Source: Minisyncoccota bacterium
GTDB taxonomy: Bacteria > Patescibacteriota > Minisyncoccia > Phycocordibacterales > UBA9973
Direction of reading: 5' to 3'
Assembly: GCA_041650615.1 (NCBI GenBank)
Contig: JBAZKU010000001.1
Coordinates: 458,750 to 522,749, forward strand
Length of the DNA: 64,000 nt
Positions 16,868 through 34,616 of this stretch are shown here, piece by piece (within the stretch, counting starts at the first letter, position 1; the number at the start of each line of letters is the position of its first letter). A program made the position numbers and the translations under genes. Under the pieces are notes generated by a model, which made no database searches, had not been told where the DNA came from, and saw nothing but the letters and a program-made list of their open reading frames with translations.

Positions 16868-16874
16868 CTTTAAC

Positions 16875-17015: not shown

Positions 17016-17035
17016 TTTAAGTCTATATATAATTA

Positions 17036-17365: not shown

Positions 17366-17546
17366 TTTTTACCAGAAATATATTTCTATTTTTAAAAAAA
17401 GAAGTTGCGTTTTTTACCCTACTTGTTCGGAATATACAAAAGAGGCCATAAAAAGATACGGAATTATAAAAGGTTCTTATTTGGGATTTTTACGCATTCT
17501 TCGTTGTCATCCTTGGCAAAAAAATCATATTGATCCCGTGAAGTAA
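17325..17546 (+). CDS. yidD: Membrane protein insertion efficiency factor YidD
   Basis: YPTCSEY...RCHPW motifs; conserved operon position. Confidence 0.85.
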
Positions 17547-17585
17547 AAACTTGGATTTTTGAGTGTTTTCGTATAAGATAAGATA

Positions 17586-18883: not shown

Positions 18884-20209
18884 TTATTTTAATTGTAATT
18901 CCCAAAAGTATGAGTCTTTTTTGTTTATAAAGAATAAATAGTTTTGATTTTCATCCAAACTGAGTTTTATCCCATCTATTTCACCCCCCCCCACCGAAGC
19001 TGGGTCCAATAACATTGTTGTATTACCACTTATAACATCTATTTTCCATATTTCATCGATAAAAGAGACCTCTCCTTGATACCAAGAATCCGGGTACTGA
19101 ACTCGATCTATAAATTTTGGCACGGCGCAATAAACAACATCGCTTGCCTTCCCCCAAGCGCATTTTTCCGGCAAAGTTTTTACGCCAAGTAAAGTAGAAT
19201 TTCCTGTATTTATATTAAAGGCACTTAGCGATAAATTATTGTCACCATAAAGAACCATTTTACTGTCCGGACTGGCGAGAGTTGTTAATCCATTTATCCC
19301 GCCTAAAATTTTATTAAAGTCTTTTTTGTCTGGATTAATTACATACATAAACCCGGGAACATTCGCAGAAGGTTTAGTTGTAACCGTAATCATTTTGTTA
19401 TTGGGCCAAAAAGACAGCCATTCGGTAAAAGGAGAACCAAATACTTGAATTTTTGTATTGGTTCCCAAAGCAAGGGTTACTCCCACTGCGGTATTTTCTG
19501 TGTTGAATAAATAAAATATTTTTGAGGCATCAGATGACACACTCATATCTGAAATGTTTTCTGGGAGAAAAGAGCCTTTAATTTCATCTGTTCCAACTGA
19601 ATCCGCTCCCAAATATTCTTTTGGAAGAGTGCCAATAAAAGTTTCTATGGTTTTGTTGTCTTCTTTCAAATATCGCATAACCACGGATTCTCCTTTGTTT
19701 CCGAAATATGCCTCATAAACCTTTGGTATTACTGTGGAAGAAAATTGTCGTTCATCTATCCTGTCTGCAAAAGTTTGATAAATGTTTCCTGTGGCTTTAT
19801 TAACATATCTTAAAGCTGGCATAAACTCAGTTGGAGGAGCAGTTGGAGTTACGGTTTGTCCCCTTTGATCTATTTGTTCTGTTGATGTTGTGATAGGCAC
19901 ATCTTTAAATCTTTCTTTTGTAAAGATTCCGTAACCAGCAATAGGAAAACTGGAAATTTTTTTTAATTTTACGTTTTGAGTTTCCGTTTCTGAAGTTGGT
20001 GTATTTTCTGAAACATTAGTAGGTGTCGTCGTATCTACGGGAGTCGTGTTTTTACTTTTTCCAAAAGGTAAAAAGTCCGCTAGAAAATTAGTTCCCTGTG
20101 TGGTTTCTGCTAGCTGGCTCGCCGGTTGATAAAAAAAGAAAAATCCAAAAGCAATAACCACAATGATTGCCAGAATTATTATTAATAAGATAAGATTTCT
20201 TGTTGACAT
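18884..20209 (-). CDS. Secreted/membrane-anchored protein, last gene of the T4SS-like operon (possibly beta-propeller)
   Basis: N-terminal TM, Thr/Pro-rich linker, beta-rich C-terminal domain; contains a G9 homopolymer at ~18977-18985. Confidence 0.5.
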   Translation of the reverse strand: MSTRNLILLIIILAIIVVIAFGFFFFYQPASQLAETTQGTNFLADFLPFGKSKNTTPVDTTTPTNVSENTPTSETETQNVKLKKISSFPIAGYGIFTKERFKDVPITTSTEQIDQRGQTVTPTAPPTEFMPALRYVNKATGNIYQTFADRIDERQFSSTVIPKVYEAYFGNKGESVVMRYLKEDNKTIETFIGTLPKEYLGADSVGTDEIKGSFLPENISDMSVSSDASKIFYLFNTENTAVGVTLALGTNTKIQVFGSPFTEWLSFWPNNKMITVTTKPSANVPGFMYVINPDKKDFNKILGGINGLTTLASPDSKMVLYGDNNLSLSAFNINTGNSTLLGVKTLPEKCAWGKASDVVYCAVPKFIDRVQYPDSWYQGEVSFIDEIWKIDVISGNTTMLLDPASVGGGEIDGIKLSLDENQNYLFFINKKDSYFWELQLK

Positions 20210-20215
20210 AAAAAA

Positions 20216-21577
20216 TTAGTATACATTTATTAAATGTTTTAATGAATCGCCATAAAAAGTAAGTGAACGACCTGATTTTATAGCTCCATTTGTTCCTCCA
20301 CTTCCACTAACTTCTATAGTTTTTCCATCCCCAATATACATAACCACATGGCCTACATTAGGGAATATAGCGCTTTCCCCAATTTTCCAACCCAACAAAT
20401 CTCCAATCTTTAATTCTTTCCCGTTTACCGAATTGCCAGAAATACTTATTGAAGTGTTATCAAGGAACATGCTAGATGTACGGTCGCCCGAAAAGTCTAG
20501 TCCTGCGCATTTATATACTTGTTTCACAAAAGAAGAACAATCAAGATATAAAGTCGGGACGGTTTTATTAATTTTATTTCTGTTGTTTTGACTATAAGTT
20601 ACTTTCCCCTCAAAACTATTAGCTATTTTTAGAAGTTCAGAACTTCTATTATTAGCTGTTGAAGTACCGGGACAATAAATTTGTAAAAAATCCAAGTCTG
20701 TTTTACTCGCGGCTACGAAGGCTTCGTTTGATTCTGCAGCAGGGCCATTTATTTCTATTGTTGCTTGGGGCAAATTATTCAAACACACACTAAGCAACTG
20801 AGGATTTATGGTATTTAAAATAAGATAAGAACCCAAAGCTAAGAGAAGTCCCAATACTGCATGAACAATTCTTTCCTTCCCAGCTTCCTTGGAAGACACA
20901 AGCTCGCTAGTCATGTATTCTATTCCCCCCATTACAATCATCACCATGGCCATTACCGCCGCAAAACCGATAACCAGTTTAATTATTATATTTAAGTAGT
21001 TTCCAAAAGGGCACGGATTGCTGTCAGAGCTCTGAGTATCAATTGTTGTATCTACTCCAGGCAATGAGGCAAGTGGAGTATAGGTTGTATCTGTGGTAGA
21101 AGTGGTTGCAGAAGAGAGAATTACGGTATCATATGGATTTTTAACTACTACTGAAACACCTGTGGTATCAAAAATCAACGGATTATTAGGGATGTCCTCT
21201 TGTTTTTCAAAAGCTAACCCAGCTATATAATAAGTTCCTTCTTCGGTGTAAGAAGATGTAAAATAAACTGAGCAAGTATTGTAACTTCCGGTTGAATTTG
21301 GGATCATGGTGCATGTTCCCCCGTCAGAAAAAGAATAGTCCTGACTAGGCCCGGTATTAACGCTAAATTCAAATATATTATTATATGGAGATTCTGACTT
21401 AACCGTTATTTTTACTGTTTGCCCTGGAACTGAAGTTGATGGTTCCGCGGACAGAGTTATTTTAAGATTTTGTGCCAAGCTTTGATTAAACGGAATAAAT
21501 AAACCAAATGAAAACATCATTAAGAATATCAGAACTATGGTTTTTTTAAAAAGTTTTTGCATATTAAAATGATACAC
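20216..21577 (-). CDS. Cell-wall hydrolase: NlpC/P60 peptidase C-terminus fused to a pilin-like two-helix hydrophobic hairpin
   Basis: Signal peptide; two hydrophobic helices separated by a short polar loop; NlpC/P60 catalytic Cys motif LDCSSFV and His in GHVVMYIGDG. Confidence 0.7.
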   Translation of the reverse strand: MYHFNMQKLFKKTIVLIFLMMFSFGLFIPFNQSLAQNLKITLSAEPSTSVPGQTVKITVKSESPYNNIFEFSVNTGPSQDYSFSDGGTCTMIPNSTGSYNTCSVYFTSSYTEEGTYYIAGLAFEKQEDIPNNPLIFDTTGVSVVVKNPYDTVILSSATTSTTDTTYTPLASLPGVDTTIDTQSSDSNPCPFGNYLNIIIKLVIGFAAVMAMVMIVMGGIEYMTSELVSSKEAGKERIVHAVLGLLLALGSYLILNTINPQLLSVCLNNLPQATIEINGPAAESNEAFVAASKTDLDFLQIYCPGTSTANNRSSELLKIANSFEGKVTYSQNNRNKINKTVPTLYLDCSSFVKQVYKCAGLDFSGDRTSSMFLDNTSISISGNSVNGKELKIGDLLGWKIGESAIFPNVGHVVMYIGDGKTIEVSGSGGTNGAIKSGRSLTFYGDSLKHLINVY

Positions 21578-22553
21578 TAATTTGCTTTGTCATACTTTGG
21601 AAAAGCGTATTAACATTATTTATGGCGACTTTAATTAAAGCGCTTCCGGATTGTCCGGCTTCCGGTTTGATGGACAATATATTTTTAGGATCTGGTGTTT
21701 GTATTTTCTCTCCATTTAAAGACCAATCAAAGACAAGGTCGGATGAATTTATATTTTTAGGTGAAAAGAAATAAGGTTCTACTATGAAGATTTCTCCGTC
21801 CGAATTTATTTTAAATCCATCACTCAAGGCTGTTTCCCATTGTACGCCGAGTAATGGGTCATTTCTATAAAAAAGTATTTTAGGATTTGCCGTGCTTAAG
21901 GTTATTTTTCCGGAGGCATTAGTACTCCCGGTAATATCGGACACTTTTACTTCAACAACATTTCCTTTATCCAAATAACTATTTTGAAAAATAAAATAAT
22001 TTTTACCCCATCCGGAAGAATTAGATTGAGCACTTCCATCCTTGGTCCATATATAAGACAAATTGTTTATATTCACTTTCCCGTATTGATTTACTAAATT
22101 CGGTATTGCTACCACTTTAAAGGTTCCTTGACTGGGGACCAGTGCTTTCCCTCTATAAAAAGGCGGAGTGTAAGAATCAGGGGCTTCCCAGAGTATATCT
22201 ACTCCCGATGGCGTTAAAGTCAGAGTTTTTGATATGGTTTCCCCGTCAATTGTGTTTATTATTACAGATAAAATAGTAGACGATCCTGCACTTCCCACCT
22301 TAAAAGAAAAAGATTTTTTCCCAATTCCTGCGCTTGCCTCTTGGCCATTTACTGACCAAGAAATATTCGCCTTATCAAGATTGATAGCATAACTATTTAA
22401 AGTGGCATCTGTATTTTGATTTGGACTTGGGTATTGGGGGGAAACATTAAGAACAATGTCCGTATCTTGTACCTGAGCACTCGCAAAAGACCCAAAAAGG
22501 GTAAAAATAAGCATAAAAAGCAACACTGAATATTTTTTTGCCATTATTCTCAT
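21564..22553 (-). CDS. Secreted beta-rich protein of the T4SS-like operon
   Basis: Cleavable signal peptide (FASAQV); overlaps the downstream gene by 14 nt (translational coupling). Confidence 0.5.
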   Translation of the reverse strand: MRIMAKKYSVLLFMLIFTLFGSFASAQVQDTDIVLNVSPQYPSPNQNTDATLNSYAINLDKANISWSVNGQEASAGIGKKSFSFKVGSAGSSTILSVIINTIDGETISKTLTLTPSGVDILWEAPDSYTPPFYRGKALVPSQGTFKVVAIPNLVNQYGKVNINNLSYIWTKDGSAQSNSSGWGKNYFIFQNSYLDKGNVVEVKVSDITGSTNASGKITLSTANPKILFYRNDPLLGVQWETALSDGFKINSDGEIFIVEPYFFSPKNINSSDLVFDWSLNGEKIQTPDPKNILSIKPEAGQSGSALIKVAINNVNTLFQSMTKQISVSF

Positions 22554-22557
22554 TGTA

Positions 22558-24405
22558 TCATTTTTTTTCTTCCATCTCTATTCTCTCCATGTCTTGTTTT
22601 GCTTTCTTGATTGATAATATCTGAGATGGGTCGGAAGTAATAATTTGATCTTCCGTATAAGAAGATATAACCTTTATGGCGACATGTTTTAATCCGGCGA
22701 AGAATATTCCTTCCCCCACTTCGGATTCCAAAAGCAAATATTTTTCTTCATCTGTAAGATTGAAGGTTTTTTGCAAAGCGTCTATGGTAGTTGGGGACTG
22801 TTTTAAAAGGAGTTGGATGGAAGAGTTGGTAATAATTGGAATTCCATATGGAGATTTCATAAAATCTGCCGCATCTTGGGTGATGGTGGAAAGCCCCAAA
22901 TAATATTTTCTGCCTCGCTTGGCGATGGAATACAAGAAAGAGGCCGTATCTTCGGATTTCATCATCCACCATGCTTCATCAACAATCAAAAGACGTTTTT
23001 TCAAATTCTTGCGTATGGTTATCCAAATATAATGCATTACGATATACATTGCGACTGGTTTTAATTCGTCTTCCATGTCGCGAACAGAAAATACCACGAA
23101 TTTTTTATTAATATCCACATTTGATGGTCTGTTAAGGAAAGTAGACCAAGACCCTTTTGTATATTTGACCAATCTTTGCATTACTGAATCACTTCCTTCC
23201 ATTCCTCCCAGCACCATTTCAAAATCCGAAAGGAGTGGCGGTTCAATGTTTGAAAAATCCGAATCCGGAGTTATATCTTTCATCGCATAAGTTTCTGAAA
23301 TAGCGCGGTCTACCATAGAATCTTCCTCCGGAGTGAGGCCACCTAACATCAATCTGAAAAGTCCGACTAGATTAATAATATTTGATCGGAGAACATCTTC
23401 GGCTGATTCATCTTCGCGCGGAATTGGCAAGTCAAAAGGGTTTATGTGATGGTCCGAAGAAAGAGAAATATTAAAATATCGTCCTCCTACGGCTTCAGCT
23501 AAATATTCATATTCTCGTTCAGGGTCTATTACTATAATATCCACATCAAACATTAAGGACCTCAAAATTTCCAGTTTTGTAGCATAACTTTTTCCTGAAC
23601 CGGATTTGGCAAAAGTCACAGAATTATAGTTTTCCAGTGAAAACCTGTCAAAAATTACCAAACTTGAATTGTGCCTGTTAACACCATAAAGTATTCCCAT
23701 ATCGGAAGTTAAGTCAAAAGAAATAAAAGGAAAGACGCTTGAAAGCGGTTCTGAATTTAATTTTTGATGAATGTCCAATAAATCATTGCCGAGTGGCATG
23801 ACGCTCTTAAAACCTTCTTCTTGCTGGAAAAGAGCCGGTTTGATATAAATCAACTTTGATTCAAGTATTGATTTTATTTCATTTTCAACTTTATAAAGTT
23901 CCAAATCATTATCGGCATAAATCGTAATATAAATGCTAACGTCAAACATTTTTTGTTGTGCTTGGATGAGATTATCACGGAGCCCCTCCAGGTCCTGATA
24001 TGCGGTATCAAGCATCGGATCGCGAACCATCCCCTTTCCTTCGCGTACATTTATTTGGCTTTGAACTTCGGCAACTTTTTTCTGAAATTGTCTTAAGGCA
24101 AGCGATGTATCTATGGGATGGATAAAAATTGAAACATCAAAAACCTTATCTAAATTAATTATCGGAGAAAACCAGTTATCACTTAAGAATCTAGGGTAAG
24201 AAATTATAAAAAAAGTACGGGCGATTTTGTCACCCAGGTTTATGGTCTTGGATTCAATTTTTAAAGCGGATGGCGCAATAATATCTTGAAGTTCCAGTTT
24301 AGCGGATTCATATATTTCTTCTGGCAATACCGCTAAAACTGAAGCATTTGCTCCTTTGGCTTCATCCGTTTTATTTTTCCCGAGCAGTTTATCAAAAATT
24401 CCCAT
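22558..24405 (-). CDS. VirB4/TrbE/CagE-family type IV secretion ATPase
   Basis: N-terminal FFIISYPRF...VSIFIHPID region typical of VirB4; Walker A FAKSGSGKSY; Walker B LLIVDEAWWMM (the DEAW motif). Confidence 0.85.
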   Translation of the reverse strand: MGIFDKLLGKNKTDEAKGANASVLAVLPEEIYESAKLELQDIIAPSALKIESKTINLGDKIARTFFIISYPRFLSDNWFSPIINLDKVFDVSIFIHPIDTSLALRQFQKKVAEVQSQINVREGKGMVRDPMLDTAYQDLEGLRDNLIQAQQKMFDVSIYITIYADNDLELYKVENEIKSILESKLIYIKPALFQQEEGFKSVMPLGNDLLDIHQKLNSEPLSSVFPFISFDLTSDMGILYGVNRHNSSLVIFDRFSLENYNSVTFAKSGSGKSYATKLEILRSLMFDVDIIVIDPEREYEYLAEAVGGRYFNISLSSDHHINPFDLPIPREDESAEDVLRSNIINLVGLFRLMLGGLTPEEDSMVDRAISETYAMKDITPDSDFSNIEPPLLSDFEMVLGGMEGSDSVMQRLVKYTKGSWSTFLNRPSNVDINKKFVVFSVRDMEDELKPVAMYIVMHYIWITIRKNLKKRLLIVDEAWWMMKSEDTASFLYSIAKRGRKYYLGLSTITQDAADFMKSPYGIPIITNSSIQLLLKQSPTTIDALQKTFNLTDEEKYLLLESEVGEGIFFAGLKHVAIKVISSYTEDQIITSDPSQILSIKKAKQDMERIEMEEKK

Positions 24406-24410
24406 AATAT

Positions 24411-25079
24411 TTATACATTTACGCTGGGCGTGACTGCGCCCGGCTCTAATTCTATCTTTCCTTCTAATTCCCCTGGGTTGAAAACTTTATAAAATACCTC
24501 CACGACTTCTTCCGTTCCTAATTGAGCTGATTTTATGCCACAGCGCGAAAGTCCTTGCTGTATTACACTTACTCTTTCTTCCAGCTGTGATCTTTTTTCT
24601 TCAAAATCCAATTGATTTTTGATCTCCTCTTCCTTTGTATTTCCCTTTGAAAACAAATTTTTTAATATTCCGGATTTTGGCCCCAAATTTACGTGTGTAT
24701 AAGGCACTACAATAAAAAAGTTTTTTGTCATAATACTTACCGATTCGGTAAAATTTCTGATAAATTCTATATATTCTTTTGTCTGCAATTTAAGTAACGG
24801 TTCATTTTGCACTTTCATTCTGTTTTCTAAAAGCAAAAGGTACGGTCTAATGTCCAGCCTTCTTGATTGTACGGATATTTGAATGGAAAAATCCAAAGTA
24901 TTCAAGAAATTTTGGAATTGAAGTATTGTAGCTTGCTGTTCATCATTTGATTTTAAGGACAAGTTCACTGAATTAGCCAGCACTACCGCCCTAAGCCCCC
25001 CGTCTTTTAAGACAACAATACCATCACGGACTTCCTTGATCGGGACAAACTCTTGAGTTGCTTTTGCTTTTAATGCCAT
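24411..25079 (-). CDS. Hypothetical protein of the T4SS-like operon
   Basis: 222 aa, no TM; tightly packed between the VirB3-like and VirB4-like genes. Confidence 0.45.
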   Translation of the reverse strand: MALKAKATQEFVPIKEVRDGIVVLKDGGLRAVVLANSVNLSLKSNDEQQATILQFQNFLNTLDFSIQISVQSRRLDIRPYLLLLENRMKVQNEPLLKLQTKEYIEFIRNFTESVSIMTKNFFIVVPYTHVNLGPKSGILKNLFSKGNTKEEEIKNQLDFEEKRSQLEERVSVIQQGLSRCGIKSAQLGTEEVVEVFYKVFNPGELEGKIELEPGAVTPSVNV

Positions 25080-25086
25080 ATATTAA

Positions 25087-25536
25087 TTACGAATTATTCT
25101 CTTCCTTTTTCAAATCAAGAACATCCAAACTCCAAGCTAAATCTCGGAGTTTGCTTCCGCTGAGTCGAACCCCATTTTGATTCATCGTTTCATTTTTTAA
25201 TTCAACTGCTGCTCCTATCTCTTTTTGTTGTTCCCTTTTTACTTTAATTGTGTGCCTTTTCCAAATATAAAGCTTATTTTGCAGAGTATATTTTATTCCA
25301 GCTTCAACCATATTGATAAAAGGCTTGCCGTTTGGATGGTAAAAAGTGAGAGCTACTGATAATCCTGCTACAATCAAAATTGGTATGGCCCCCAACCACA
25401 ATCCTAATAATTTAAATAATATGTAACATATCCCTGCTCCCCCTACCAAATACACAAATTCCTTAAAGGTAAATGGGCCAAAAATTTTATCTTCTATTTC
25501 CAAAAATTGTGGGACTTTGAATTGCATATGAATCAA
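25087..25536 (-). CDS. Small two-TM membrane protein, VirB3-like
   Basis: 149 aa with two adjacent TM helices (GAGICYILFKLLGLWLGAIPILIVAGLSVALTF), placed just upstream of the VirB4 region as in Gram-positive T4SS. Confidence 0.45.
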   Translation of the reverse strand: MIHMQFKVPQFLEIEDKIFGPFTFKEFVYLVGGAGICYILFKLLGLWLGAIPILIVAGLSVALTFYHPNGKPFINMVEAGIKYTLQNKLYIWKRHTIKVKREQQKEIGAAVELKNETMNQNGVRLSGSKLRDLAWSLDVLDLKKEENNS

Positions 25537-25568
25537 TTATAAACTACAAACTATCGGCCACCTAGCGT

Positions 25569-26240
25569 CTAATCAATGGGCATTCTGTACGGGTCTACTT
25601 TTGGAATTTCAGTGCTTGGTTTTATTGGGATACCGGAATCTTTTGTCATATTAGTAAGAGAATGTTCGGTTTCAACTGTTGGAATTTGAAAAGACCCGGA
25701 AAGTTTTTGTGCCAGTATTGGATGTATTTCCTTACCTGTTTCTGAATCAATAGGAAGATGGGCAAGTTCCTCTTTTGAAGGAGCAGGAAGTTCTTTTTCA
25801 GCCAACAAATCGGGAGTTTCCAAGTGTTTCAACATTTCTTCCCGGCTTTCCAGGGGTTGCTCTTTTGATTCCTCTGATGTTTGTGTTTGTTTATTTTCAG
25901 ATATTTTTTTTATTTCAATATTTTTTACAAGTTCCTCGCGAATTTTTTTAAAAACTCTTTCATTCATTTCATTTACTAATATATCTACCTGAGCTCTTGG
26001 GATATTCATTCTCTTTTCCAGTTCCTTCGGATAATCTTCTGGATTAATAAGCCCGCAAAGTAACAATTCCGTCTCAATCTCAAGGTCTTCCAACTGTGTA
26101 TAGCTGTATCCTTTCTCTGCTCTCATCCCCAAAATTATTCCCTTCCAATCAATTGCATCAATAGCGTGTTGGCTTTCTTCTGATAGTCCTGTCTTCGCTT
26201 TTTCTATTTTTATTTTTAGTAAATCTACTGTGTTTTCCAT
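25569..26240 (-). CDS. Hypothetical acidic protein, paralog of 26249-26749
   Basis: N-terminal ~70 aa align with the neighbouring ORF (ESQ.AI.A.DW...L..E.L). Confidence 0.5.
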   Translation of the reverse strand: MENTVDLLKIKIEKAKTGLSEESQHAIDAIDWKGIILGMRAEKGYSYTQLEDLEIETELLLCGLINPEDYPKELEKRMNIPRAQVDILVNEMNERVFKKIREELVKNIEIKKISENKQTQTSEESKEQPLESREEMLKHLETPDLLAEKELPAPSKEELAHLPIDSETGKEIHPILAQKLSGSFQIPTVETEHSLTNMTKDSGIPIKPSTEIPKVDPYRMPID

Positions 26241-26248
26241 AATATTTA

Positions 26249-26749: not shown

Positions 26750-26761
26750 AAATTTTTATTT

Positions 26762-28726: not shown

Positions 28727-30469
28727 TTATTTTTGAAAATAATATTCATAACTGGAAGCGTCTTTAAAGACAGTGGTTAAATTTCGGATATCCACTATTT
28801 TGTTGTCAAAATATTCATACACAGTTAATCTATTCCCGATTAGTTGAAGCTGATAAGCTGCTATATCCGGGAAGCTGACTCGTATTTCCTGACCATTGGA
28901 ATCAATATAACCGAAGGCTTTGGCAAAAGTATGAGAAAGGTCTTCCGCAAAAGTTTGTAGATTGGTCCCTTCTTGGTACCCATACGTTTTTGCAAATAAG
29001 GAATTTTTAATAATTTGTCTGGTGAAAACTGTTTCAATCCCTTCGTGGTAACGAACGATAGCATCCGAAGGGGGGGTGCTTGTCTGCCCCAAAACAAGAT
29101 TTGTCCATGTTCCTGTTCCTGTACTGCTTGTTCCCGAAGTAGTTGTCCAAGTTCCGGAACCTGTACTGCTTGTCCATGTTCCTAAACCATTTCCTAGTCC
29201 GACCCAAGTAACACTTCCTGTTCCTCCTGTTCCCGAAGTAGTTGTCCAAGTTCCGGAACCTGTTCCAGTTCCCCAAGTTCCGCTAGTTCCTTCATTGTCA
29301 GTTGTCCAAATTCCGGATTCATTAGTTGTAGTTGTAGTTGTTGTAGTGGTGGTGGTAGGAGTTGTAGTTGTTGTAGTGGTAGTGGTAGTAGAAGTTGTAG
29401 TATCCCTGCTCCCTCCTCCACTTGTGCTTGCACTAGAAGAATTTGTCGTAGTAAAATTTATTATTTGTGGCGCTGGAAATATTTTTTCTTCACCGCTAGT
29501 TGTAATATTTTTTACTGTAGCTCTGAATTGGTATTCTGTGTTTGGTTTTAATCCGGACAAGCCAAATTTTATGTCTCCATAAAGATTGGCATTATTATCC
29601 ATATTATAAGTTTGTTCTCCGGCTGAAACCCACGATGCGACACAAGCAGGATATACTCCGGTCCAACCGGTCGGGCATCCATTATTAACATTTTCTCCTG
29701 TAGGTATCACTAATTTTGCTTCTCTATATTGAAAGTAAGTTTTGACTTTTTCATTTGTGATTGTTCCATCAGAATTTGTTTTTGGAGAGCAATAGGAACC
29801 GCTCAATTGAGCAGAAGTTGATTTTATATTTTTTACGCTTTTTGTTTCTACAGTTGTGTCATAACAATTGGTATGAAAGCTTTTTACGGCACTTTCTCCG
29901 CCATAAGATATATTTTCTTTATTGGAAAGTATTGCGCAATAATAATATGTTGTATTTGGGCTTAAGCCGGTTATTTGTTGATAAAAAGAATTTGTTTCCT
30001 GGGTAGAATTGAAAAGAGAACCTAAACCTGGGGTGAAAAATGGAGCAGAAGTATAATTATTTCCTTTTCCATCTTTAGTAAAGCTTGCTCCTAAGTGAAT
30101 ATCCCCTGTTGAAACCATATTAGTGCCATAAATATCATTGCAGAAAATCGGTGAAATAACCGCTTTTGAATATCTAAAATATGCGGTAATTGGAGACATT
30201 TGGGTGACTCCGGTATTACACGGTATCCCTGTTCTTGTGCTATATCCTTCAAATGAGGTGCATCCCAACTGGTAAGTTGTAGTTATAGTGCCTGTCCCAT
30301 GTAATGTCGCAGTAGTTTGAGTAATATTGTTTGCGGAATCGGTAGAAAAAGAAAGAAAAGAAGGTGTATAGGCTTGCAAAATAAATGGAGCAAGAAATAA
30401 TGAGATTATTAGAATTTTTAATATATTTTTTTTCATTTCTTTTTTAATAAATTCCGATTGTATTTTCAA
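28727..30469 (-). CDS. Secreted Thr/Gly-rich repeat surface protein
   Basis: Signal peptide; poly-Thr tract (T10-P-T11) and repeated GTGSGTWTTTSG units; tandem ACN-codon repeats at DNA level. Confidence 0.6.
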   Translation of the reverse strand: MKIQSEFIKKEMKKNILKILIISLFLAPFILQAYTPSFLSFSTDSANNITQTTATLHGTGTITTTYQLGCTSFEGYSTRTGIPCNTGVTQMSPITAYFRYSKAVISPIFCNDIYGTNMVSTGDIHLGASFTKDGKGNNYTSAPFFTPGLGSLFNSTQETNSFYQQITGLSPNTTYYYCAILSNKENISYGGESAVKSFHTNCYDTTVETKSVKNIKSTSAQLSGSYCSPKTNSDGTITNEKVKTYFQYREAKLVIPTGENVNNGCPTGWTGVYPACVASWVSAGEQTYNMDNNANLYGDIKFGLSGLKPNTEYQFRATVKNITTSGEEKIFPAPQIINFTTTNSSSASTSGGGSRDTTTSTTTTTTTTTTPTTTTTTTTTTTNESGIWTTDNEGTSGTWGTGTGSGTWTTTSGTGGTGSVTWVGLGNGLGTWTSSTGSGTWTTTSGTSSTGTGTWTNLVLGQTSTPPSDAIVRYHEGIETVFTRQIIKNSLFAKTYGYQEGTNLQTFAEDLSHTFAKAFGYIDSNGQEIRVSFPDIAAYQLQLIGNRLTVYEYFDNKIVDIRNLTTVFKDASSYEYYFQK

Positions 30470-33218
30470 ACGGATAAGGATTTCCTAACCGTATGTATTT
30501 TGATCCTTGGGTTTCATGACCATAAGTATCAACTAAGTCACCTATGTATAACCTTTCTGGTCCTTCTCCAGGGAATTTAGAAAGATCAGTTGCATTTGAG
30601 AAAAAGGTAAAATTTAGAAATCCGGGGTCATAGATAAGATCATCGTTTAGATAAAGTGATGGTCGCCCCGATACCAAATTAGAATTAGCATCTGGCATTG
30701 TATTTAAATAACCGCTTCCCCATGGGTCTGGGAGTACTTGAAATCCATTATTAATCTTTTTTGTAAAATTATTATAATCATAAAGTATTGGATGTGGATA
30801 AGTCATCCTTTTAACGGAATTAACATTAAAGTCACTCCAGTCTGGATTGTACACTAGATTAACTCCTGGTCCCGCTGAAGAGAAATTTGTTATGTTTTGT
30901 GGGTTACTGAGAAAGGCCTCACAACCATAAGGTCCTTTCAAAAGATCATTATAGATGTAATTTTTTTTGTCAACGATTTGCTTATATAAGTTATCAGCGC
31001 TAGCTATATCATTTCCATTAACCATCTCTAAAGATAATCTTCCGAAAGCATTTATTTGAGTTTTTAATTCGTTTTCATATACGTCACCTCCGTCCGGGTA
31101 TTGCGCATTCAACAAATCAACAGCATCTTTTATTTGTCCTAATATATTTACAGTAGTTTTTAAAGAAATTATTTTATCTTCGTTGTTTTTTATCATCTGA
31201 GAATATCCAGTCAATTGATTAAAACTAGCGGCTGCTTCTTTAGAAACTGCAGGTAAAATTTCCGGACTGGAAAAATAAGTTTTATTCATTATTTCAATGT
31301 ATCTGCTTAATATTTTATTCAAAATCTGAGCTAATCCAGCTTGAGTTGATATATTATTATCCTGTGGATCCATAGAAGTATTGTTATGGGCATTACTTCC
31401 ACCATCATCACGAACTCGGAGTCCATAACCTGTTAACAAATAAAATAGATAAGAGTATTGCTTTCTGGCTTCGTAGGAAAGTTCCCCTGGATCATCAGAT
31501 TGTCCGAAGATTGAACCTAATATACCGCCAATGACAGGGATAGAACTGACAATATTAACAAAGGTGCTGTTCCCGGGCGCTGAATTTGCTCCGGGAATCA
31601 CTATATTTGTCAATGTTTCTTGCGCGTCTTGTTCCCAGCCCGGATGAGGTCCTGGAATACAATAATCCAATTGATAGATAGCTGGTATAAGTCCATATGC
31701 ATTGGAACGTCCTGTAACTACATCAATTTTATAAGGTTTTCCATCGGTGGTGGAATTGAGTTCTTTATTTTGTAGCGCGAGTTTATCAGAATAAGTTCTT
31801 TGCTCGTCTATTAAAGCTTGAGTAAGGTCTGTGCGGATATTGAAATCCGGATTGGCAGCTAGCCAAGAACTTGTAAGTTGAGAAGGCTCAAAATCCTTTT
31901 CTGTTTGGGTTTGAAATATAACGCCTGTGCTTACGTTGCTTGTGGTATACAAAGTTCCATCTGCCCCCTGATTTGAGAGACCAGCAAACCCTTTTTCCAT
32001 AATAGTGGAAGAGAATTGGCCTAAGAGGGCATCTGTAATAGCCGCAACAGCATCATTTAAATCTGTTGCATTTAGATATGCATTATTTTGATAATTAATT
32101 GCTGTCGTAGCCGCCTCGGATATTAATTTCCCCGGTGTAACATACTCCCATCTTTTACATATGCCTATTATGTTTCCTTCAGAATCCTTTTCTCCCGCTA
32201 TTAAAGCTTTATTATGTTCTTCCCTTGTAAGACCCACTGGGTCGGCGCAACGTTGGTCACCCAAAAATCCATTTGCCTGCGCTAGGGCTTCATGCACAGC
32301 CTCCGCTGTTGACTGTGTTGTTCCTTCTAATCTTTGCTGTAATTCATTGTCAGCCATTAATTTAAAACCAAGAGGATTATTAGCCGGGACTTGGGTCATG
32401 GCTGTCCAAGCGTTCCATCCGCCTTGGCTGAAATCTTCTTGAAAAGTTATCGCGGAATATTCTGGGTTGGTTTTTTGAATAAGTTCATTCAAAGAATAGC
32501 GTGCGTTATCTTGAAATTTATTATTGAAAGCTATAGCTGTATTTTGCATCCAAACTTTACCGAATGGAAATAATTGCGGGTCGCTTATTTCTAAACCAAA
32601 TTGCAATACTTCATTTTTGGCAATATCTCCAAAGAATTTACTTGAATCTTGGATGAAGGCAGGACTGCCGTCAAAACCGCTATTAATCCAATTAACCGTA
32701 CTGACAGTTAATTTTTGCAGAAGCATTTTTATAATTAATCGCCCGATGCTTTGGATGCAAGTAGAGTTTGCATTCATAGATTCAGTAGCCGTCTTCGTTG
32801 CCTGGGTATTTGCATTAATTGTATCTATTTTTTTTGCTGTTGCTGTTCCTTCAATATTAACCTTAATGGAATCACTTTCACTTGTTAATGAACCCGCTGT
32901 ATCATCTAGCATTTTAATTTCTCTTCCATTAAGATCAGAAATGCTAGAAATTTCCCCAAAATCTGTTATTGTTTCCCCTGAAAAATTTTCTGAACTAGAA
33001 TTTAATAAATTTCCAATCCCACTAAACAAGCTTTTTACTCCGCTATTTATTACATTTTTACATTGTGGTAATATGGCAATAGCTGGGGCCAGTCCGGTAG
33101 CATATCCTGTTAAACTTTGTGCTTCGGCCTTTTTAGGAATAAAACTCAAAGGCATCAATATTGTACTTATAATTAGGATGGGAGGGATTATTAAATTAGT
33201 AAGATATTTTTTCTTCAT
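30444..33218 (-). CDS. Large secreted protein (924 aa) of the T4SS-like operon
   Basis: Signal peptide/TM at the N-terminus, no recognisable catalytic motifs; 26-nt overlap with the downstream gene. Confidence 0.6.
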   Translation of the reverse strand: MKKKYLTNLIIPPILIISTILMPLSFIPKKAEAQSLTGYATGLAPAIAILPQCKNVINSGVKSLFSGIGNLLNSSSENFSGETITDFGEISSISDLNGREIKMLDDTAGSLTSESDSIKVNIEGTATAKKIDTINANTQATKTATESMNANSTCIQSIGRLIIKMLLQKLTVSTVNWINSGFDGSPAFIQDSSKFFGDIAKNEVLQFGLEISDPQLFPFGKVWMQNTAIAFNNKFQDNARYSLNELIQKTNPEYSAITFQEDFSQGGWNAWTAMTQVPANNPLGFKLMADNELQQRLEGTTQSTAEAVHEALAQANGFLGDQRCADPVGLTREEHNKALIAGEKDSEGNIIGICKRWEYVTPGKLISEAATTAINYQNNAYLNATDLNDAVAAITDALLGQFSSTIMEKGFAGLSNQGADGTLYTTSNVSTGVIFQTQTEKDFEPSQLTSSWLAANPDFNIRTDLTQALIDEQRTYSDKLALQNKELNSTTDGKPYKIDVVTGRSNAYGLIPAIYQLDYCIPGPHPGWEQDAQETLTNIVIPGANSAPGNSTFVNIVSSIPVIGGILGSIFGQSDDPGELSYEARKQYSYLFYLLTGYGLRVRDDGGSNAHNNTSMDPQDNNISTQAGLAQILNKILSRYIEIMNKTYFSSPEILPAVSKEAAASFNQLTGYSQMIKNNEDKIISLKTTVNILGQIKDAVDLLNAQYPDGGDVYENELKTQINAFGRLSLEMVNGNDIASADNLYKQIVDKKNYIYNDLLKGPYGCEAFLSNPQNITNFSSAGPGVNLVYNPDWSDFNVNSVKRMTYPHPILYDYNNFTKKINNGFQVLPDPWGSGYLNTMPDANSNLVSGRPSLYLNDDLIYDPGFLNFTFFSNATDLSKFPGEGPERLYIGDLVDTYGHETQGSKYIRLGNPYPFENTIGIY

Positions 33219-33243
33219 TTTTTGCTATTTTCCTTTTATTATA

Positions 33244-34179
33244 TCATTGTTTTGACAAAGTTGTTTCTAGGGCCCCCACTGCTTTTATTAAATCATCGCT
33301 ATATTTTTGATACTGAGAAAGTCCTGAGAGCCCAATAATAGGATCACTTACAATTTTCTCCATATTTAATACGCTTATGCCGGTGTTATTGGAGCTATTT
33401 GCTATTTGCAGATGATATTCAGCCAAACTTTGTGGAACATTCATTTCTATTACTTTTTTGGCAAAATTCTGATATGCGTTTCCTATTGTAGATAATTTAT
33501 CATATTGATTAGTATCATTTATTGTTTCACTGGTAGAATCTGTGGCAAGTCCGTTACTAATAATAATTAACTCGTCCCCTAATCCAACTTCCTGATAACT
33601 TTTGAATAGTTTTTGCATATCTTCATAATATTTTTGTTTTGAAACCAAGTTATCGGTAGTACTTATCTTTATATCTGCCTCCGAATAACGATCAATTAAA
33701 TTGGGATTCACTATATTTTGCCCGAGAGAGCTGGAAAAATTATTAATAGTGTCATTGTCAACTTGCCCGGAAGATTTCAATGCTGAATAACTGGCAAAAA
33801 ACTCTCTGGCAAACTTTTCGGTTTCCGTTAAATTTGCTTCATTGGCACTTGTGTTTTCTTCTATGTTCAATTCTTTCTTTTTATTTTCTATATAAGTGGC
33901 GTCGGGGGTATCATTAAAAGTTATTTTTTTGTTCGGATTTGTCCCCCAGAGAGATTCTTCCCAATCAGGGATGTTGTCATTATCTGTGTCTTTTTCTATT
34001 AAGCCTGTAATAGATTGATTCTCTACTTTCAGGGCAGTATCTTTTTCCCCTCCTATGTTAAAATTTTCTCCACTGGAGGACATAAAGAAAATCACAAAAA
34101 TAATTATCACTAAAACAATAATAACACTTGTTATTATTATAAATTTTTTACTCGGTAAGTATTTAAAATATTTTTCCAT
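33244..34179 (-). CDS. Bitopic membrane protein with DTDNDNIPD calcium-binding-like motif (possible VirB8-like scaffold)
   Basis: Single N-terminal TM then a soluble domain; thrombospondin-type-3-like Asp-rich motif. Confidence 0.5.
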   Translation of the reverse strand: MEKYFKYLPSKKFIIITSVIIVLVIIIFVIFFMSSSGENFNIGGEKDTALKVENQSITGLIEKDTDNDNIPDWEESLWGTNPNKKITFNDTPDATYIENKKKELNIEENTSANEANLTETEKFAREFFASYSALKSSGQVDNDTINNFSSSLGQNIVNPNLIDRYSEADIKISTTDNLVSKQKYYEDMQKLFKSYQEVGLGDELIIISNGLATDSTSETINDTNQYDKLSTIGNAYQNFAKKVIEMNVPQSLAEYHLQIANSSNNTGISVLNMEKIVSDPIIGLSGLSQYQKYSDDLIKAVGALETTLSKQ

Positions 34180-34220
34180 TTTTACTTTTCAATTTTATGA
34201 ACTTTTTACTTGATAACTTT

Positions 34221-34616
34221 TTAATATCTTGATGTTCCAAAAAGATTTATCGTATCTAAACTGACTATTTGGACATCTCCTGCCGGATTAGTACAGGTTA
34301 TCATTGTTTGCCCGCTATACCTGCCTAATATTAATTGACTCATTGTTGGAGTAGTTCTGGTTTTTGAGGTTATATAAGATGGAATGAAGTAGTCTGTTGG
34401 AGTACCAATAGGTGAACCAATTGGTGTGATTGAAATAGAAGTACCAGACATGGGACAAACATAACCAGTTGCTTCCAATATTGTTACTTCTGTGGCTTTA
34501 GTGTTAATTATTTTCCCCCCAAAGACTCCCCCCAAAAAAGAATAAGCAAAAACTATCTTGGCGCTAATAGATACCAAAAAAACTATTAGCAAAACAAAAA
34601 TGGTGCCTTTTTTCAT
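34221..34616 (-). CDS. Small secreted/membrane protein, first gene of the T4SS-like operon (pilin-like candidate)
   Basis: 131 aa, N-terminal hydrophobic helix, Thr/Ser/Gly-rich; TATAAT 6 nt upstream of its ATG. Confidence 0.45.
   Translation of the reverse strand: MKKGTIFVLLIVFLVSISAKIVFAYSFLGGVFGGKIINTKATEVTILEATGYVCPMSGTSISITPIGSPIGTPTDYFIPSYITSKTRTTPTMSQLILGRYSGQTMITCTNPAGDVQIVSLDTINLFGTSRY

What the first reader, a model, noticed from the sequence alone, without database searches (positions are those of the whole stretch)
18884..34616. 13-gene type IV secretion-like operon without coupling protein or relaxase
A single tightly packed minus-strand operon (gaps of 4-40 nt, several overlaps) encodes the following, in transcription order:
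- a small pilin-like protein
- a bitopic membrane protein with a Ca-binding-like motif
- a 924-aa secreted protein
- a Thr-rich repeat surface protein
- a VirB6/TrbL-like polytopic membrane protein
- two paralogous acidic proteins
- a VirB3-like two-TM protein and a 222-aa protein of unknown role
- a VirB4 ATPase (Walker A FAKSGSGKSY, Walker B DEAW)
- a secreted beta-rich protein
- a protein with a VirB2-like hydrophobic helix-loop-helix fused to an NlpC/P60 cell-wall hydrolase (DCSSFV...GHVV)
- a beta-propeller-like secreted protein.

No VirD4-type coupling ATPase, relaxase, oriT or integrase lies within or next to the operon. The architecture is therefore not a standard conjugative element.

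In an organism with CPR-like genome features (likely an episymbiont), a chromosomally encoded minimal T4SS with large adhesin-like components could mediate host attachment, effector delivery or DNA uptake. The hydrolase-pilin fusion and the paralogous acidic pair are unusual. A PilB-type ATPase is encoded separately at 5595-7292.
Basis: partly seen in the sequence, partly recalled or inferred. Interest (0 to 1): 0.8.

Follow-up and report, generated by a model that had tools for sequence, protein, structure and literature searches.

The report
Chromosomal Patescibacteria type IV secretion operon
This is the chromosomal, relaxase-free type IV secretion system that nearly all ultrasmall CPR/Patescibacteria carry next to their replication origin; it is real but was described in 2023-2025, and the one possibly new detail is that its pilin gene carries cell-wall enzyme modules that differ between close relatives.

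Summary
The 13 tightly packed minus-strand ORFs at 18884-34616 are real. No coupling protein or relaxase lies in the 64-kb window. The flanks are housekeeping genes at the replication origin.

The organism is a Candidatus Nomurabacteria (Paceibacteria). The gene order uvrD-ksgA-[operon]-jag-yidC-rnpA-dnaA-dnaN recurs across the 80 related genomes fetched. So this is a vertically inherited core trait, not a mobile element.

This is the "Patescibacteria-clade T4SS" of Quinonero-Coronel et al. 2025 (PMC12102498), shown essential in a Saccharibacterium by Wang et al. 2023 (PMC10633639).

Corrections:
- The first gene is neither pilin-like nor conserved.
- The 441-aa protein is a membrane-anchored beta-propeller.
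- The 924-aa protein is a helical orphan.

One extra: orthologues of the pilin gene keep only the hairpin. Their C-terminal domains (NlpC/P60, VanY/M15, YkuD, SLT, amidase, unknowns) differ even between the closest relatives.

The parts
34221..34616 (-). g1, 131 aa. Small secreted protein specific to this lineage; not a pilin and not a conserved member of the cluster.
   Evidence: One N-terminal hydrophobic segment only. No Pfam hit. The pilin-hairpin HMM does not hit it. In 17 of 29 relatives ksgA abuts g2 directly, and a g1 homologue is seen in 2 loci.
33244..34179 (-). g2, 311 aa. Bitopic membrane protein with an extracellular DxDxDG..DWEE..LWGTDP calcium-loop-like motif.
   Evidence: TM peak at residues 13-31. 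Motif at residue 64, conserved in 30 of 37 orthologues. First conserved gene of the cluster.
30444..33218 (-). g3, 924 aa. Secreted, mostly alpha-helical protein with no recognisable relative.
28727..30469 (-). g4, 580 aa. Variable Thr-rich repeat surface protein.
   Evidence: Poly-T and SGTWTTTSGT repeats in the translation. Weak match to the Pur_ac_phosph_N domain. Detected in only 14 of 80 loci.
26762..28726 (-). g5, 654 aa. Polytopic membrane protein with a hydrophilic C-terminal extension; VirB6-like by position and topology.
   Evidence: Signal plus about 6 TM peaks. NCBIfam MMCAP2_0566 1.3e-4 over 71-360 against 20-306 of 322. 11 of 44 orthologues hit MMCAP2_0566 (best 4.8e-7) and 4 hit the Mbov_0396 ICE TM protein. 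No Pfam TrbL hit. hhalign against a CD1112 VirB6 is insignificant. It occupies the same position as VirB6 in pCDC3875.
26249..26749 (-). g6, 166 aa. Acidic cytoplasmic protein, paralogue of g7.
   Evidence: 31% identity over 102 aa to g7, E = 2e-13. pI 4.9, no TM. No Pfam or PDB profile hit.
25569..26240 (-). g7, 223 aa. Acidic cytoplasmic protein, paralogue of g6, with a C-terminal DPYR motif.
   Evidence: One or both paralogues are present in most loci.
25087..25536 (-). g8, 149 aa. PrgI/VirB3-like two-TM protein.
   Evidence: Pfam PrgI 1.6e-9, 38.6 bits against a cut-off of 27; TcpE 1.3e-3. Detected in 76 of 80 loci, median 58% identity.
24411..25079 (-). g9, 222 aa. TrsD/TraC-like protein, equivalent to a separately encoded VirB4 N-terminal domain.
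   Evidence: NCBIfam hits: VirB4_plasma residues 101-257 (6.7e-11), TrsD (4.3e-6), CD1110 residues 2-109 (1.9e-5). Precomputed PF26593 TraC-like. Present in 80 of 80 loci, median 75% identity.
22558..24405 (-). g10, 615 aa. VirB4 ATPase lacking its N-terminal domain.
   Evidence: Matches CD1110 profile positions 182-733 of 752. 75-95% identical in the 80 loci kept. 28-35% identical to CD1110-type VirB4 of Firmicutes and Actinobacteria plasmids.
21564..22553 (-). g11, 329 aa. Secreted or anchored beta-rich protein, probably three Ig-like repeats.
   Evidence: N-terminal hydrophobic segment. Weak PKD_3, GldM_2nd and Ig_3 hits. Conserved W/G/Y/P pattern recurring about three times along the sequence. 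No PDB sequence relative. Detected in 75 of 80 loci.
20216..21577 (-). g12, 453 aa. Signal peptide (1-36), Ig-like head (37-160), VirB2-like pilin hairpin (about 161-265; nt 20783-21097) and NlpC/P60 endopeptidase (266-453; nt 20219-20782).
   Evidence: Catalytic Cys 347 and His 410 are invariant in the 13 orthologues with a P60 tail. A 143-aa bare pilin 79% identical to the core sits at the same position in a sibling genome. It is the only VirB2-like gene in the window.
18884..20209 (-). g13, 441 aa. N-terminal TM anchor, disordered linker (30-79) and an extracellular beta-propeller.
   Evidence: AF2 pLDDT 81, pTM 0.74. Foldseek hits WD40, RACK1, TolB and tricorn at about 1e-10. 1483 homologues, all hypothetical, two of them carrying PF01471. 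Detected in 70 of 80 loci.
34649..37584 (-). ksgA (rsmA) and uvrD/pcrA. Co-oriented housekeeping genes directly upstream; they form the conserved upstream boundary.
   Evidence: Pfam RrnaAD 1.9e-61 and UvrD-helicase 4.4e-85. Synteny.
14066..18864 (.). dnaN, dnaA, rnpA, yidC and jag. The origin-of-replication gene block forming the conserved downstream boundary.

Best explanation
Identity (high confidence). The locus is the chromosomal, vertically inherited 'Patescibacteria-clade' type IV secretion system. This is a derivative of the monoderm MPF-FATA conjugation machinery that has lost its coupling protein and relaxase. Here it sits in a Candidatus Nomurabacteria (Paceibacteria) genome beside oriC.

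Shown parts:
- a VirB4 ATPase split into a TrsD/TraC-like N-domain (g9) and an ATPase body (g10);
- a PrgI/VirB3 membrane adaptor (g8);
- a polytopic VirB6-position membrane protein (g5);
- a VirB2-like pilin (g12) that in this genome carries an Ig-like module on its N-terminus and an NlpC/P60 peptidoglycan endopeptidase on its C-terminus.

The order VirB6-PrgI-x-VirB4-x-hydrolase is collinear with clostridial CD1110-type conjugation modules.

Inferred mechanism (moderate confidence, about 0.4):
1. The VirB4 hexamer docks on PrgI and the VirB6-like channel.
2. It drives extraction of the pilin hairpin from the membrane and its assembly into a short envelope-spanning tube.
3. The positive-inside rule puts both pilin termini outside the cell. 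The attached hydrolase is therefore extracytoplasmic and cuts peptidoglycan. It supplies the VirB1 function in cis and possibly opens the wall of the host bacterium.
4. The anchored beta-propeller (g13), the Ig-like protein (g11), the Ca-motif bitopic protein (g2) and the 924-aa helical protein (g3) form the extracellular scaffold or adhesion layer.
5. The two acidic cytoplasmic paralogues (g6, g7) could be adaptors or chaperones that stand in for the missing coupling protein.

The cargo and its direction (effector export or import of host macromolecules) are not known.
For: Component assignments:
- VirB4.
- TrsD/TraC-like domain.
- PrgI.
- Pilin plus NlpC/P60.
- A bare pilin orthologue at the same position.
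- g5, weak but repeated hits to the polytopic proteins of Mollicutes ICEs.
- Topology.

Context:
- Collinearity with pCDC3875.
- VirB4 is 28-35% identical to Firmicutes and Actinobacteria CD1110-type proteins. It is 75-95% identical in the 80 related loci kept, out of 581 that encode a relative.
- Recurrent synteny uvrD-ksgA-[g2..g13]-jag-yidC-rnpA-dnaA-dnaN.
- No T4CP, relaxase or adjacent integrase in the window.
- G+C of the operon, 0.35-0.37, falls within the range of the rest of the window.

Literature:
- The same system, its missing relaxase and its position near dnaA, dnaN, rnpA and ksgA are described phylum-wide (PMC12102498).
- It is essential for epibiotic growth in Southlakia (PMC10633639).
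- Tubular structures at a parasite-host interface may be T4SS pili (bioRxiv 10.64898/2026.06.21.733656).
Against: - The VirB6 assignment is weak. No Pfam TrbL hit appears in any of 44 orthologues, and hhalign against a CD1112 VirB6 is insignificant.
- No VirB8-like component was recognised. g13 is a propeller, and g11, g2 and g3 have no NTF2-like signal. Only g13 and g3 were modelled.
- Whether a pilin carrying about 125 and 190 extra residues on its termini can polymerise is unknown.
- A sibling genome has the bare pilin, so the hydrolase is not obligatory in cis.
- A T4CP may be encoded elsewhere in the genome. The literature finds VirD4-like genes far from virB4 in most Patescibacteria.
- The function is extrapolated from a different class (Saccharimonadia).
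- I did not build a VirB4 tree.
Confidence: 0.85

Rival explanations
1. Uptake machine. The relaxase-free, T4CP-free T4SS works inward, like the Helicobacter ComB system or the archaeal Ced system. It imports host DNA, RNA or nucleotides-rich macromolecules to feed an organism that cannot make nucleotides.
For: - No T4CP or relaxase in the window, as in ComB.
- The literature raises this possibility explicitly (PMC11665869; bioRxiv 2026).
- In the ABY1 class, T4SS loci co-localise with comF, recG and radA.
- A ComM-like gene (49467-51008) and PilB (5595-7292) lie in the same window.
Against: - ComB-type systems are diderm machines with VirB7, VirB9 and VirB10, which are absent here.
- In Southlakia comEC is dispensable while the T4SS is essential.
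- Nothing in the operon binds or processes nucleic acid by any profile used.
- This rival concerns cargo direction and is compatible with the same machine identity.
Confidence: 0.25
2. Armed-pilin effector system. The main output of the machine is the pilin itself. A conserved VirB2-like hairpin serves as carrier for rapidly exchanged enzyme modules aimed at the host cell wall, analogous to polymorphic toxins.
For: - Among 78 orthologues only the hairpin is conserved.
- 69 have tails of 130-280 aa, falling into at least 26 BLAST clusters.
- Recognised tail domains are NlpC/P60 (12), VanY (8), M15_4 (3), YkuD (5), SLT (2), SLT_2 (2), Amidase_2 (1) and Amidase_5 (5, overlapping NlpC/P60 in the window protein).
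- The largest unknown cluster has an invariant H-x7-D...H-x-H pattern, which resembles LAS zinc peptidases (inference from the motif only).
- Tail type does not track VirB4 identity. Relatives at 95, 94, 91 and 90% carry four different tails.
- The catalytic Cys and His are invariant in the P60 group.
Against: - No variable immunity-like gene follows; the downstream gene g13 is conserved.
- Bare pilins exist at the same position.
- About half of the tails are unassigned.
- The enzymes could simply remodel the cell's own wall for machine assembly, the VirB1 role.
- No biochemical data exist.
- I cannot exclude that this has been noted somewhere outside the searchable library.
Confidence: 0.3
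3. Decaying remnant of an integrated conjugative element that has lost its relaxase, coupling protein and integrase.
For: - VirB4, PrgI and the gene order resemble clostridial conjugative modules.
- A tyrosine recombinase lies 9 kb away at 43768-44682.
Against: - The same gene order between the same housekeeping genes recurs in dozens of species-level genomes.
- VirB4 is 75-95% identical and TrsD 54-91% identical across them, which implies strong purifying selection.
- All ORFs are intact.
- Composition is native.
- The recombinase has the XerC/D architecture and is separated from the operon by tRNAs and housekeeping genes.
Confidence: 0.03

Closest known systems
Patescibacteria-clade T4SS (Quinonero-Coronel et al. 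2025, Microb Genom, PMC12102498). The experimentally essential example is SEML1_0006-0019 of Southlakia epibionticum (Wang et al. 2023, Cell, PMC10633639).
   Same: - VirB4 with a TrsD partner, PrgI/VirB3, a VirB6-like protein and VirB2-like (PF18895) pilins.
- A peptidoglycan hydrolase downstream of virB4.
- No relaxase and no T4CP near virB4.
- Chromosomal position beside dnaA, dnaN, rnpA and ksgA, as reported for Paceibacteria.
- Large lineage-specific secreted proteins.
   Different: - Southlakia has an array of six stand-alone pilins and a separate triple-lysozyme protein. Here there is a single pilin gene, and it carries the hydrolase itself.
- The Southlakia NTF2-like (VirB8-like) protein has no recognised counterpart here.
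- The beta-propeller (g13), the g3 helical protein and the acidic paralogue pair are Nomurabacteria/Paceibacteria-specific, as far as the searches show.
MPF-FATA conjugative T4SS of Firmicutes, CD1110/CTn2 type (for example Clostridium botulinum pCDC3875, NZ_KJ776578.1).
   Same: - VirB4 is 28-35% identical and passes the CD1110 NCBIfam cut-off.
- PrgI is present.
- The order VirB6-PrgI-x-VirB4-x-cell-wall hydrolase is the same.
   Different: - The plasmid has a VirD4-like CD1115 coupling protein and a MOBP relaxase; neither is present here.
- Its VirB4 is one polypeptide; here it is split.
- It has no VirB2-like pilin.
- It is mobile; this operon is fixed at oriC.
Mollicutes ICE conjugation module (Mbov_0395 pilin-like, Mbov_0396 TM protein, Mbov_0397 VirB4).
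   Same: The g12 hairpin, g5 and g9/g10 give their best or only NCBIfam hits to these three neighbouring ICE families. This is one of the few monoderm systems with a VirB2-like protein.
   Different: - The hits are weak and far below the curated cut-offs.
- Mollicutes have no wall and no hydrolase.
- Those elements are mobile.
VirB1-type T4SS peptidoglycan hydrolases of Gram-positive systems (PrgK of pCF10, TraG of pIP501, CwlT of ICEBs1).
   Same: Each is a membrane-anchored, extracytoplasmic muralytic enzyme (NlpC/P60, CHAP or SLT) encoded just downstream of virB4.
   Different: In those proteins the anchor is an ordinary TM segment or a lipobox. Here the anchor is the VirB2-like pilin hairpin. 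This comparison rests on my own knowledge of those proteins and was not tested here.

Membership tests
Type IV secretion system (VirB4-based) | VirB4-family ATPase with Walker A and Walker B motifs | tested here: met
   NCBIfam CD1110 family, 377 bits against a cut-off of 325. Pfam P-loop_TraG 7.5e-25. PDB 4AG5 1.4e-39. Motifs at residues 265 and 476.
Type IV secretion system (VirB4-based) | VirB3/PrgI-type small membrane partner next to virB4 | tested here: met
   Pfam PrgI, 38.6 bits against a cut-off of 27.
Type IV secretion system (VirB4-based) | VirB6/TrbL-type polytopic channel protein | tested here: inconclusive
   About 6 TM segments and the right position. Only sub-threshold hits to MMCAP2_0566 and Mbov_0396. 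No TrbL hit. hhalign probability 1%.
Type IV secretion system (VirB4-based) | VirB8-like (NTF2-fold) bitopic protein | tested here: inconclusive
   No profile hit in any operon protein. The g13 model is a propeller. g2 and g11 were not modelled. The literature also finds VirB8 rare outside ABY1.
Patescibacteria-clade T4SS (PMC12102498) | TrsD-like protein associated with virB4 | tested here: met
   g9 hits TrsD (4.3e-6, below cut-off), the VirB4 N-terminal regions of two families, and precomputed PF26593 TraC-like.
Patescibacteria-clade T4SS (PMC12102498) | VirB2-like (PF18895) pilin near virB4 in a monoderm system | tested here: met
   PF18895 at 1.9e-4 in the window protein and in 66 of 78 orthologues, best 4.7e-10. 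A 79%-identical stand-alone pilin exists.
Patescibacteria-clade T4SS (PMC12102498) | No relaxase and no coupling protein near virB4; chromosomal, near dnaA, dnaN, rnpA and ksgA | tested here: met
   The rest of the genome could not be searched.
Patescibacteria-clade T4SS (PMC12102498) | VirB4 falls inside the monophyletic Patescibacteria clade nested in MPF-FATA | not tested
   No tree was built. Proxy evidence: 75-95% identity in the 80 related loci kept, against at most 35% to any plasmid VirB4.
Conjugative element (ICE or plasmid) | Relaxase (MOB) and oriT | tested here: not met
   No relaxase domain in any ORF of 290 aa or more in the 64-kb window. oriT cannot be tested without a relaxase family.
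Conjugative element (ICE or plasmid) | VirD4/TcpA-type coupling ATPase | tested here: not met
   All ORFs of 440 aa or more outside the operon are housekeeping, and those inside it give no VirD4/TcpA hit. Not testable for the rest of the genome.
Conjugative element (ICE or plasmid) | Variable presence and insertion site, integrase at one end | tested here: not met
   Fixed position between ksgA and jag in the related loci long enough to show it. The only recombinase is XerC/D-like and 9 kb away.
ComB-type DNA-uptake T4SS | VirB7, VirB9 and VirB10 outer-membrane core together with VirB2, 3, 4, 6 and 8; works with ComEC | tested here: not met
   No VirB9 or VirB10 profile hits. The organism is presumed monoderm. 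ComEC is not in the window.
Polymorphic toxin/effector systems | Conserved N-terminal carrier with interchangeable C-terminal enzymatic domains | tested here: met
Polymorphic toxin/effector systems | Cognate, co-varying immunity gene immediately downstream | tested here: not met
   The downstream gene g13 is conserved, at a median of 48% identity in 70 loci, whatever the tail type.

The most novel reading that the evidence does not exclude
In the Nomurabacteria-type relatives, the single T4SS pilin would be a modular 'armed pilin'. The VirB2-like hairpin is a conserved carrier, and its two extracellular termini accept swappable modules. These are Ig, TIG or CBM domains at the N-terminus and peptidoglycan endopeptidases, carboxypeptidases, L,D-transpeptidases, lytic transglycosylases or amidases at the C-terminus. 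The modules are exchanged between very close relatives. This suggests a pilus or stalk that carries host-wall-specific enzymes and so sets host range. I found no description of such an effector-display logic for any T4SS in the library searches I ran.
Probability: 0.3. Interest if true: 0.65.

Novelty: new member of a known kind. Interest (0 to 1): 0.35.

Why it matters
The operon itself adds one more instance to a system already catalogued in about 2,400 Patescibacteria genomes, so it changes little. That system's function is still called "completely unknown" (PMC11665869), although it is essential in the one species tested.

The comparative picture here gives two concrete handles:
1. A defined conserved set for Nomurabacteria: g2, g3, g5, g6/g7, PrgI, TrsD, VirB4, g11, the pilin and the propeller. 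It separates core genes from lineage add-ons (g1, g4).
2. A pilin whose cell-wall-enzyme cargo is swapped between near-identical machines.

If the tail enzymes match host wall chemistry, they would be a sequence-readable predictor of host range for uncultivated episymbionts. They would also argue that the machine's job includes breaching the host wall.

Tried and rejected
- Profile-versus-PDB sequence searches found no relative for g13, g11, g5, the g6/g7 family or the largest unknown pilin-tail cluster.
- Pfam scans of all g5 and g6/g7 orthologues gave nothing meaningful.
- hhalign of the g5 family against a clostridial CD1112 VirB6 gave probability 1%.
- The g13 propeller matches WD40, TolB and tricorn alike, so no specific family follows.
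- Promoter and terminator scans were at or near chance level, so the transcription unit is not defined.
- A search with the 113-aa pilin core returned only 22 short pilins, because the word index found few candidates. It did not give the hoped-for census of architectures.
- The AFDB library was unavailable.
- The pCF10 accession was not in the plasmid collection.
- The ICE-remnant and ComB-type readings are rejected or downgraded, as set out in the rival explanations and the membership table.
- I considered g1 as a pilin and rejected it.

Full report

Yes. The ORF listing gives thirteen minus-strand ORFs at exactly the stated coordinates. In transcription order they are 131, 311, 924, 580, 654, 166, 223, 149, 222, 615, 329, 453 and 441 aa. 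Gaps are 0-41 nt and there are two overlaps. I call them g1 (34221-34616) to g13 (18884-20209).

Two more co-oriented genes sit directly upstream. They are ksgA (34649-35515, 32-nt gap) and uvrD/pcrA (35512-37584, 4-nt overlap with ksgA). Consensus promoter and terminator scans were at or near chance level, so the limits of the transcription unit are open.

**2. What the genes are**

- **g10 (VirB4).** Pfam P-loop_TraG 7.5e-25 and AAA_10. NCBIfam 'VirB4-like conjugal transfer ATPase, CD1110 family' 1.4e-112, 377 bits against a curated cut-off of 325. PDB 4AG5, a Thermoanaerobacter VirB4, at 1.4e-39, and TrwK at 2e-7. Walker A is at residue 265 and DEAW at 476. The match covers profile positions 182-733 of 752, so the N-terminal domain is missing.
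It supplies that missing domain. It hits the N-terminal regions of two VirB4 families and TrsD. It also carries a precomputed PF26593 TraC-like assignment.
- **g8.** PrgI/VirB3, above the Pfam cut-off.
- **g12.** One ORF holds a signal peptide, an Ig-like head and a two-helix hairpin. The hairpin matches T4SS_pilin (PF18895), TrbC/VirB2 and the Mbov_0395 pilin-like family. An NlpC/P60 domain above the Pfam cut-off follows. The short loop between the helices is Lys/Arg-rich, so both termini, and therefore the hydrolase, should be outside the cell (inference from the positive-inside rule).
- **g5.** A signal sequence, about six TM segments and a hydrophilic tail. Homology to VirB6 is weak. There are sub-threshold hits to the polytopic proteins of Mollicutes ICEs, in 11 and 4 of 44 orthologues. 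No orthologue hits TrbL. hhalign against a clostridial CD1112 VirB6 is insignificant.
- **g6 and g7.** True paralogues (31% identity over 102 aa, E = 2e-13). Both are acidic and cytoplasmic. No family is recognisable.
- **g13.** An AlphaFold2 model (pLDDT 81) shows a TM helix, a disordered linker and a beta-propeller. Only generic WD40 and TolB neighbours appear.
- **g3.** An AlphaFold2 model (pLDDT 70, C-terminal half above 90) shows long helices. There is no specific structural neighbour.
- **g2.** A bitopic protein whose DxDxDG..DWEE motif is conserved in 30 of 37 orthologues.
- **g11.** A beta-rich protein with weak Ig/PKD signals, probably three repeats.
- **g4.** A Thr-rich, variable protein.
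- **g1.** One hydrophobic segment and no pilin signature.

**3. Surroundings**

Downstream lie jag, yidC, rnpA, dnaA and dnaN. Upstream lie ksgA, uvrD, an M23/LysM peptidase and tRNAs.

Every other ORF of 290 aa or more in the window is housekeeping, except a 290-aa ORF at 48022-48894 with no Pfam match. The list is PolA, PilB, RuvB, TyrRS, PBP1, the CCA enzyme, a racemase, a XerC/D-type recombinase, PNPase, ComM, RNase Y, trigger factor, H+-PPase, a radical SAM protein and NusA.

No VirD4/TcpA-type ATPase and no relaxase are present. G+C of the operon (0.35-0.37) is within the window's range.

**4. Relatives**

A scan of one genome per species found 581 stretches that encode a relative of VirB4. 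The best 80 are 75-95% identical. They come from MAGs labelled Candidatus Nomurabacteria, Paceibacterota, Parcubacteria, generic Patescibacteria or, in many cases, 'uncultured Candidatus Saccharibacteria'.

Among the loci long enough to show it, the recurring order is uvrD-ksgA-[g2, g3, (g4), g5, g6, g7, PrgI, TrsD, VirB4, g11, g12, g13]-jag-yidC-rnpA-dnaA-dnaN.

TrsD, VirB4 and PrgI are the most conserved, with median identities of 75, 86 and 58%. g13, g12 and g11 follow. The upstream secreted proteins diverge faster.

g1 is not part of the conserved set. In 17 of 29 loci ksgA abuts g2. g4 was detected in 14 loci only.

The operon is therefore a vertically inherited core feature at the replication origin, not a mobile element.

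**5. Comparison with what is known**

This is the system described by Quinonero-Coronel et al. 2025 (PMC12102498). That paper reports:
- a monophyletic Patescibacteria VirB4 clade nested in MPF-FATA, present in 2,417 of 3,035 genomes;
- TrsD as the commonest partner, with PrgI/VirB3, VirB6 and VirB2-like pilins nearby;
- hardly any relaxases, and T4CP genes rarely near virB4;
- in Paceibacteria and Microgenomatia, a location next to dnaA, dnaN, rnpA, ksgA and rpmH.

Wang et al. 2023 (PMC10633639) showed by Tn-seq that the homologous cluster SEML1_0006-0019 is essential for epibiotic growth of Southlakia. That cluster is also origin-proximal. They noted its lack of a coupling protein and relaxase.

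Reviews call the function unknown and list effector delivery or nucleic-acid uptake as options (PMC11665869, PMC12857230). A 2026 preprint reports tubular structures at a parasite-host interface that may be T4SS pili.

Against plasmids, VirB4 is 28-35% identical to CD1110-type proteins of Firmicutes and Actinobacteria. In C. botulinum pCDC3875 the order is VirD4-x-VirB6-PrgI-x-VirB4-x-SLT hydrolase. This is collinear with the window apart from the missing VirD4.

**6. What goes beyond the published description, as far as I could check**

I aligned 78 proteins homologous to g12 from the related loci, nearly all at the same position two genes downstream of virB4 (four loci contribute two copies). 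Only the hairpin is conserved. It corresponds to window residues 166-261, with the motif Y.LLAPLP...G.Y...K...GLLLALG...L.T.NP.L. PF18895 is found in 66 of the 78.

Sixty-nine of the 78 have a 130-280-aa tail after the hairpin. The tails fall into at least 26 BLAST clusters. Recognised tail domains are:
- NlpC/P60: 12
- VanY: 8
- Peptidase_M15_4: 3
- YkuD: 5
- SLT and SLT_2: 2 each
- Amidase_2: 1
- Amidase_5: 5 (overlapping the NlpC/P60 region in the window protein)

The largest unassigned cluster has an invariant H-x7-D ... H-x-H pattern that resembles LAS zinc peptidases. That reading rests on the motif only, and no PDB sequence hit supports it.

N-terminal heads also vary, from 23 to 478 aa. 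They include TIG, Big_1, Filamin and CBM_10 domains.

Tail type does not follow relatedness. The four closest relatives (VirB4 95, 94, 91 and 90% identical) carry four different tails, and none is the window's NlpC/P60.

In a sibling genome the same position holds a bare 143-aa pilin. Its signal peptide and core are 79% identical to g12, and the sequence ends where the hydrolase begins in the window. So g12 is an ordinary Patescibacteria pilin with one module inserted after the signal peptide and another appended to the C-terminus.

The NlpC/P60 catalytic Cys and His are invariant in all 13 orthologues with a P60 tail, and an acidic third residue is conserved.

g12 is the only VirB2-like gene in the window.

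The 2025 paper does not mention pilin-hydrolase fusions. Two further literature searches found nothing on them. This is absence of evidence within a limited library.

**7. Mechanism**

Shown: the identities of VirB4/TrsD, PrgI and the pilin-hydrolase, the topology predictions, the propeller fold, the conserved synteny, and the absence of conjugation-specific genes in the window.

Inferred:
- A VirB4 hexamer docks on PrgI and the polytopic g5. It drives membrane extraction and assembly of the pilin into a short tube.
- The enzyme on the pilin's outer terminus cuts peptidoglycan. This may be the cell's own wall (the VirB1 role), the host's wall, or both.
- g13, g11, g2 and g3 form an extracellular scaffold or adhesion layer.
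- g6 and g7 might act as cytoplasmic adaptors in place of a coupling protein.

Cargo and direction are unknown. I give about 0.85 to the identity and about 0.4 to this mechanistic sketch. The uptake variant gets about 0.25 and the 'armed pilin' effector reading about 0.3; neither excludes the identity. The ICE-remnant reading is effectively excluded.

**8. Verdict**

- Novelty: a new member of a known kind.
- Interest is modest (0.35), because the headline claim, a relaxase-free chromosomal T4SS in a CPR bacterium, is published and even reviewed.
- The residual interest lies in the polymorphic pilin-enzyme modules and in the defined Nomurabacteria-specific accessory set.

Noticed in passing
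window 20216-21577 and loci L001-L080 (alignment A1): Orthologues of the pilin gene keep only the VirB2-like hairpin. The C-terminal domains (NlpC/P60, VanY/M15, YkuD, SLT, amidase and several unknown clusters) and the N-terminal heads differ even between genomes whose VirB4 proteins are 90-95% identical. A sibling genome has a bare 143-aa pilin at the same position.
   Followed up: yes
window 18564-18606 (inside jag, 18322-18864 +): A perfect 43-nt G+C-rich palindrome (20-bp arms, 3-nt loop) lies inside the variable linker of the Jag/R3H protein, about 280 nt beyond the convergent end of the T4SS operon. It is in frame and encodes the repeated peptide PKSDLG..PKSDLG. The exact arm sequence is absent from all 80 related loci. 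It could act as a terminator for the convergent operon or be a small inserted repeat.
   Followed up: partly
window 37964-38935 (+): An M23 peptidase with two LysM domains lies just beyond uvrD, divergent from the operon. The 2025 paper notes M23/LysM domains among VirB1-like proteins of Patescibacteria. Whether this gene works with the T4SS was not examined.
   Followed up: no
homologues of g13 (P0093, P0115): Two homologues of the anchored beta-propeller carry an added PF01471 domain, which I know as the peptidoglycan-binding PG_binding_1 domain. This hints that the propeller works at the cell wall.
   Followed up: no
window 25569-26240 and alignment A7: The g7 branch of the acidic paralogue family ends in a conserved D-P-Y-R-E-like C-terminal motif (KVDPYRMPID in the window). 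g6 lacks it. It might be a docking or recognition tail.
   Followed up: no
window 43768-44682 (-): A 304-aa tyrosine recombinase with XerC/D-type architecture (Phage_int_SAM_1 plus Phage_integrase) lies 9 kb from the operon. tRNAs and housekeeping genes separate the two. It is probably the chromosome dimer resolvase rather than an element integrase.
   Followed up: partly
window 57766-59883 (+): The H+-translocating pyrophosphatase gene sits in the most G+C-rich 2-kb bin of the window (0.42, against about 0.35 elsewhere). This may reflect codon or amino-acid bias of a polytopic protein, or foreign origin.
   Followed up: no
window 5595-7292 (+) and 49467-51008 (+): A PilB-type T2SSE ATPase and a ComM-like Mg-chelatase-family protein are encoded in the same window. 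This fits the type IV pilus and competence equipment typical of these bacteria.
   Followed up: partly
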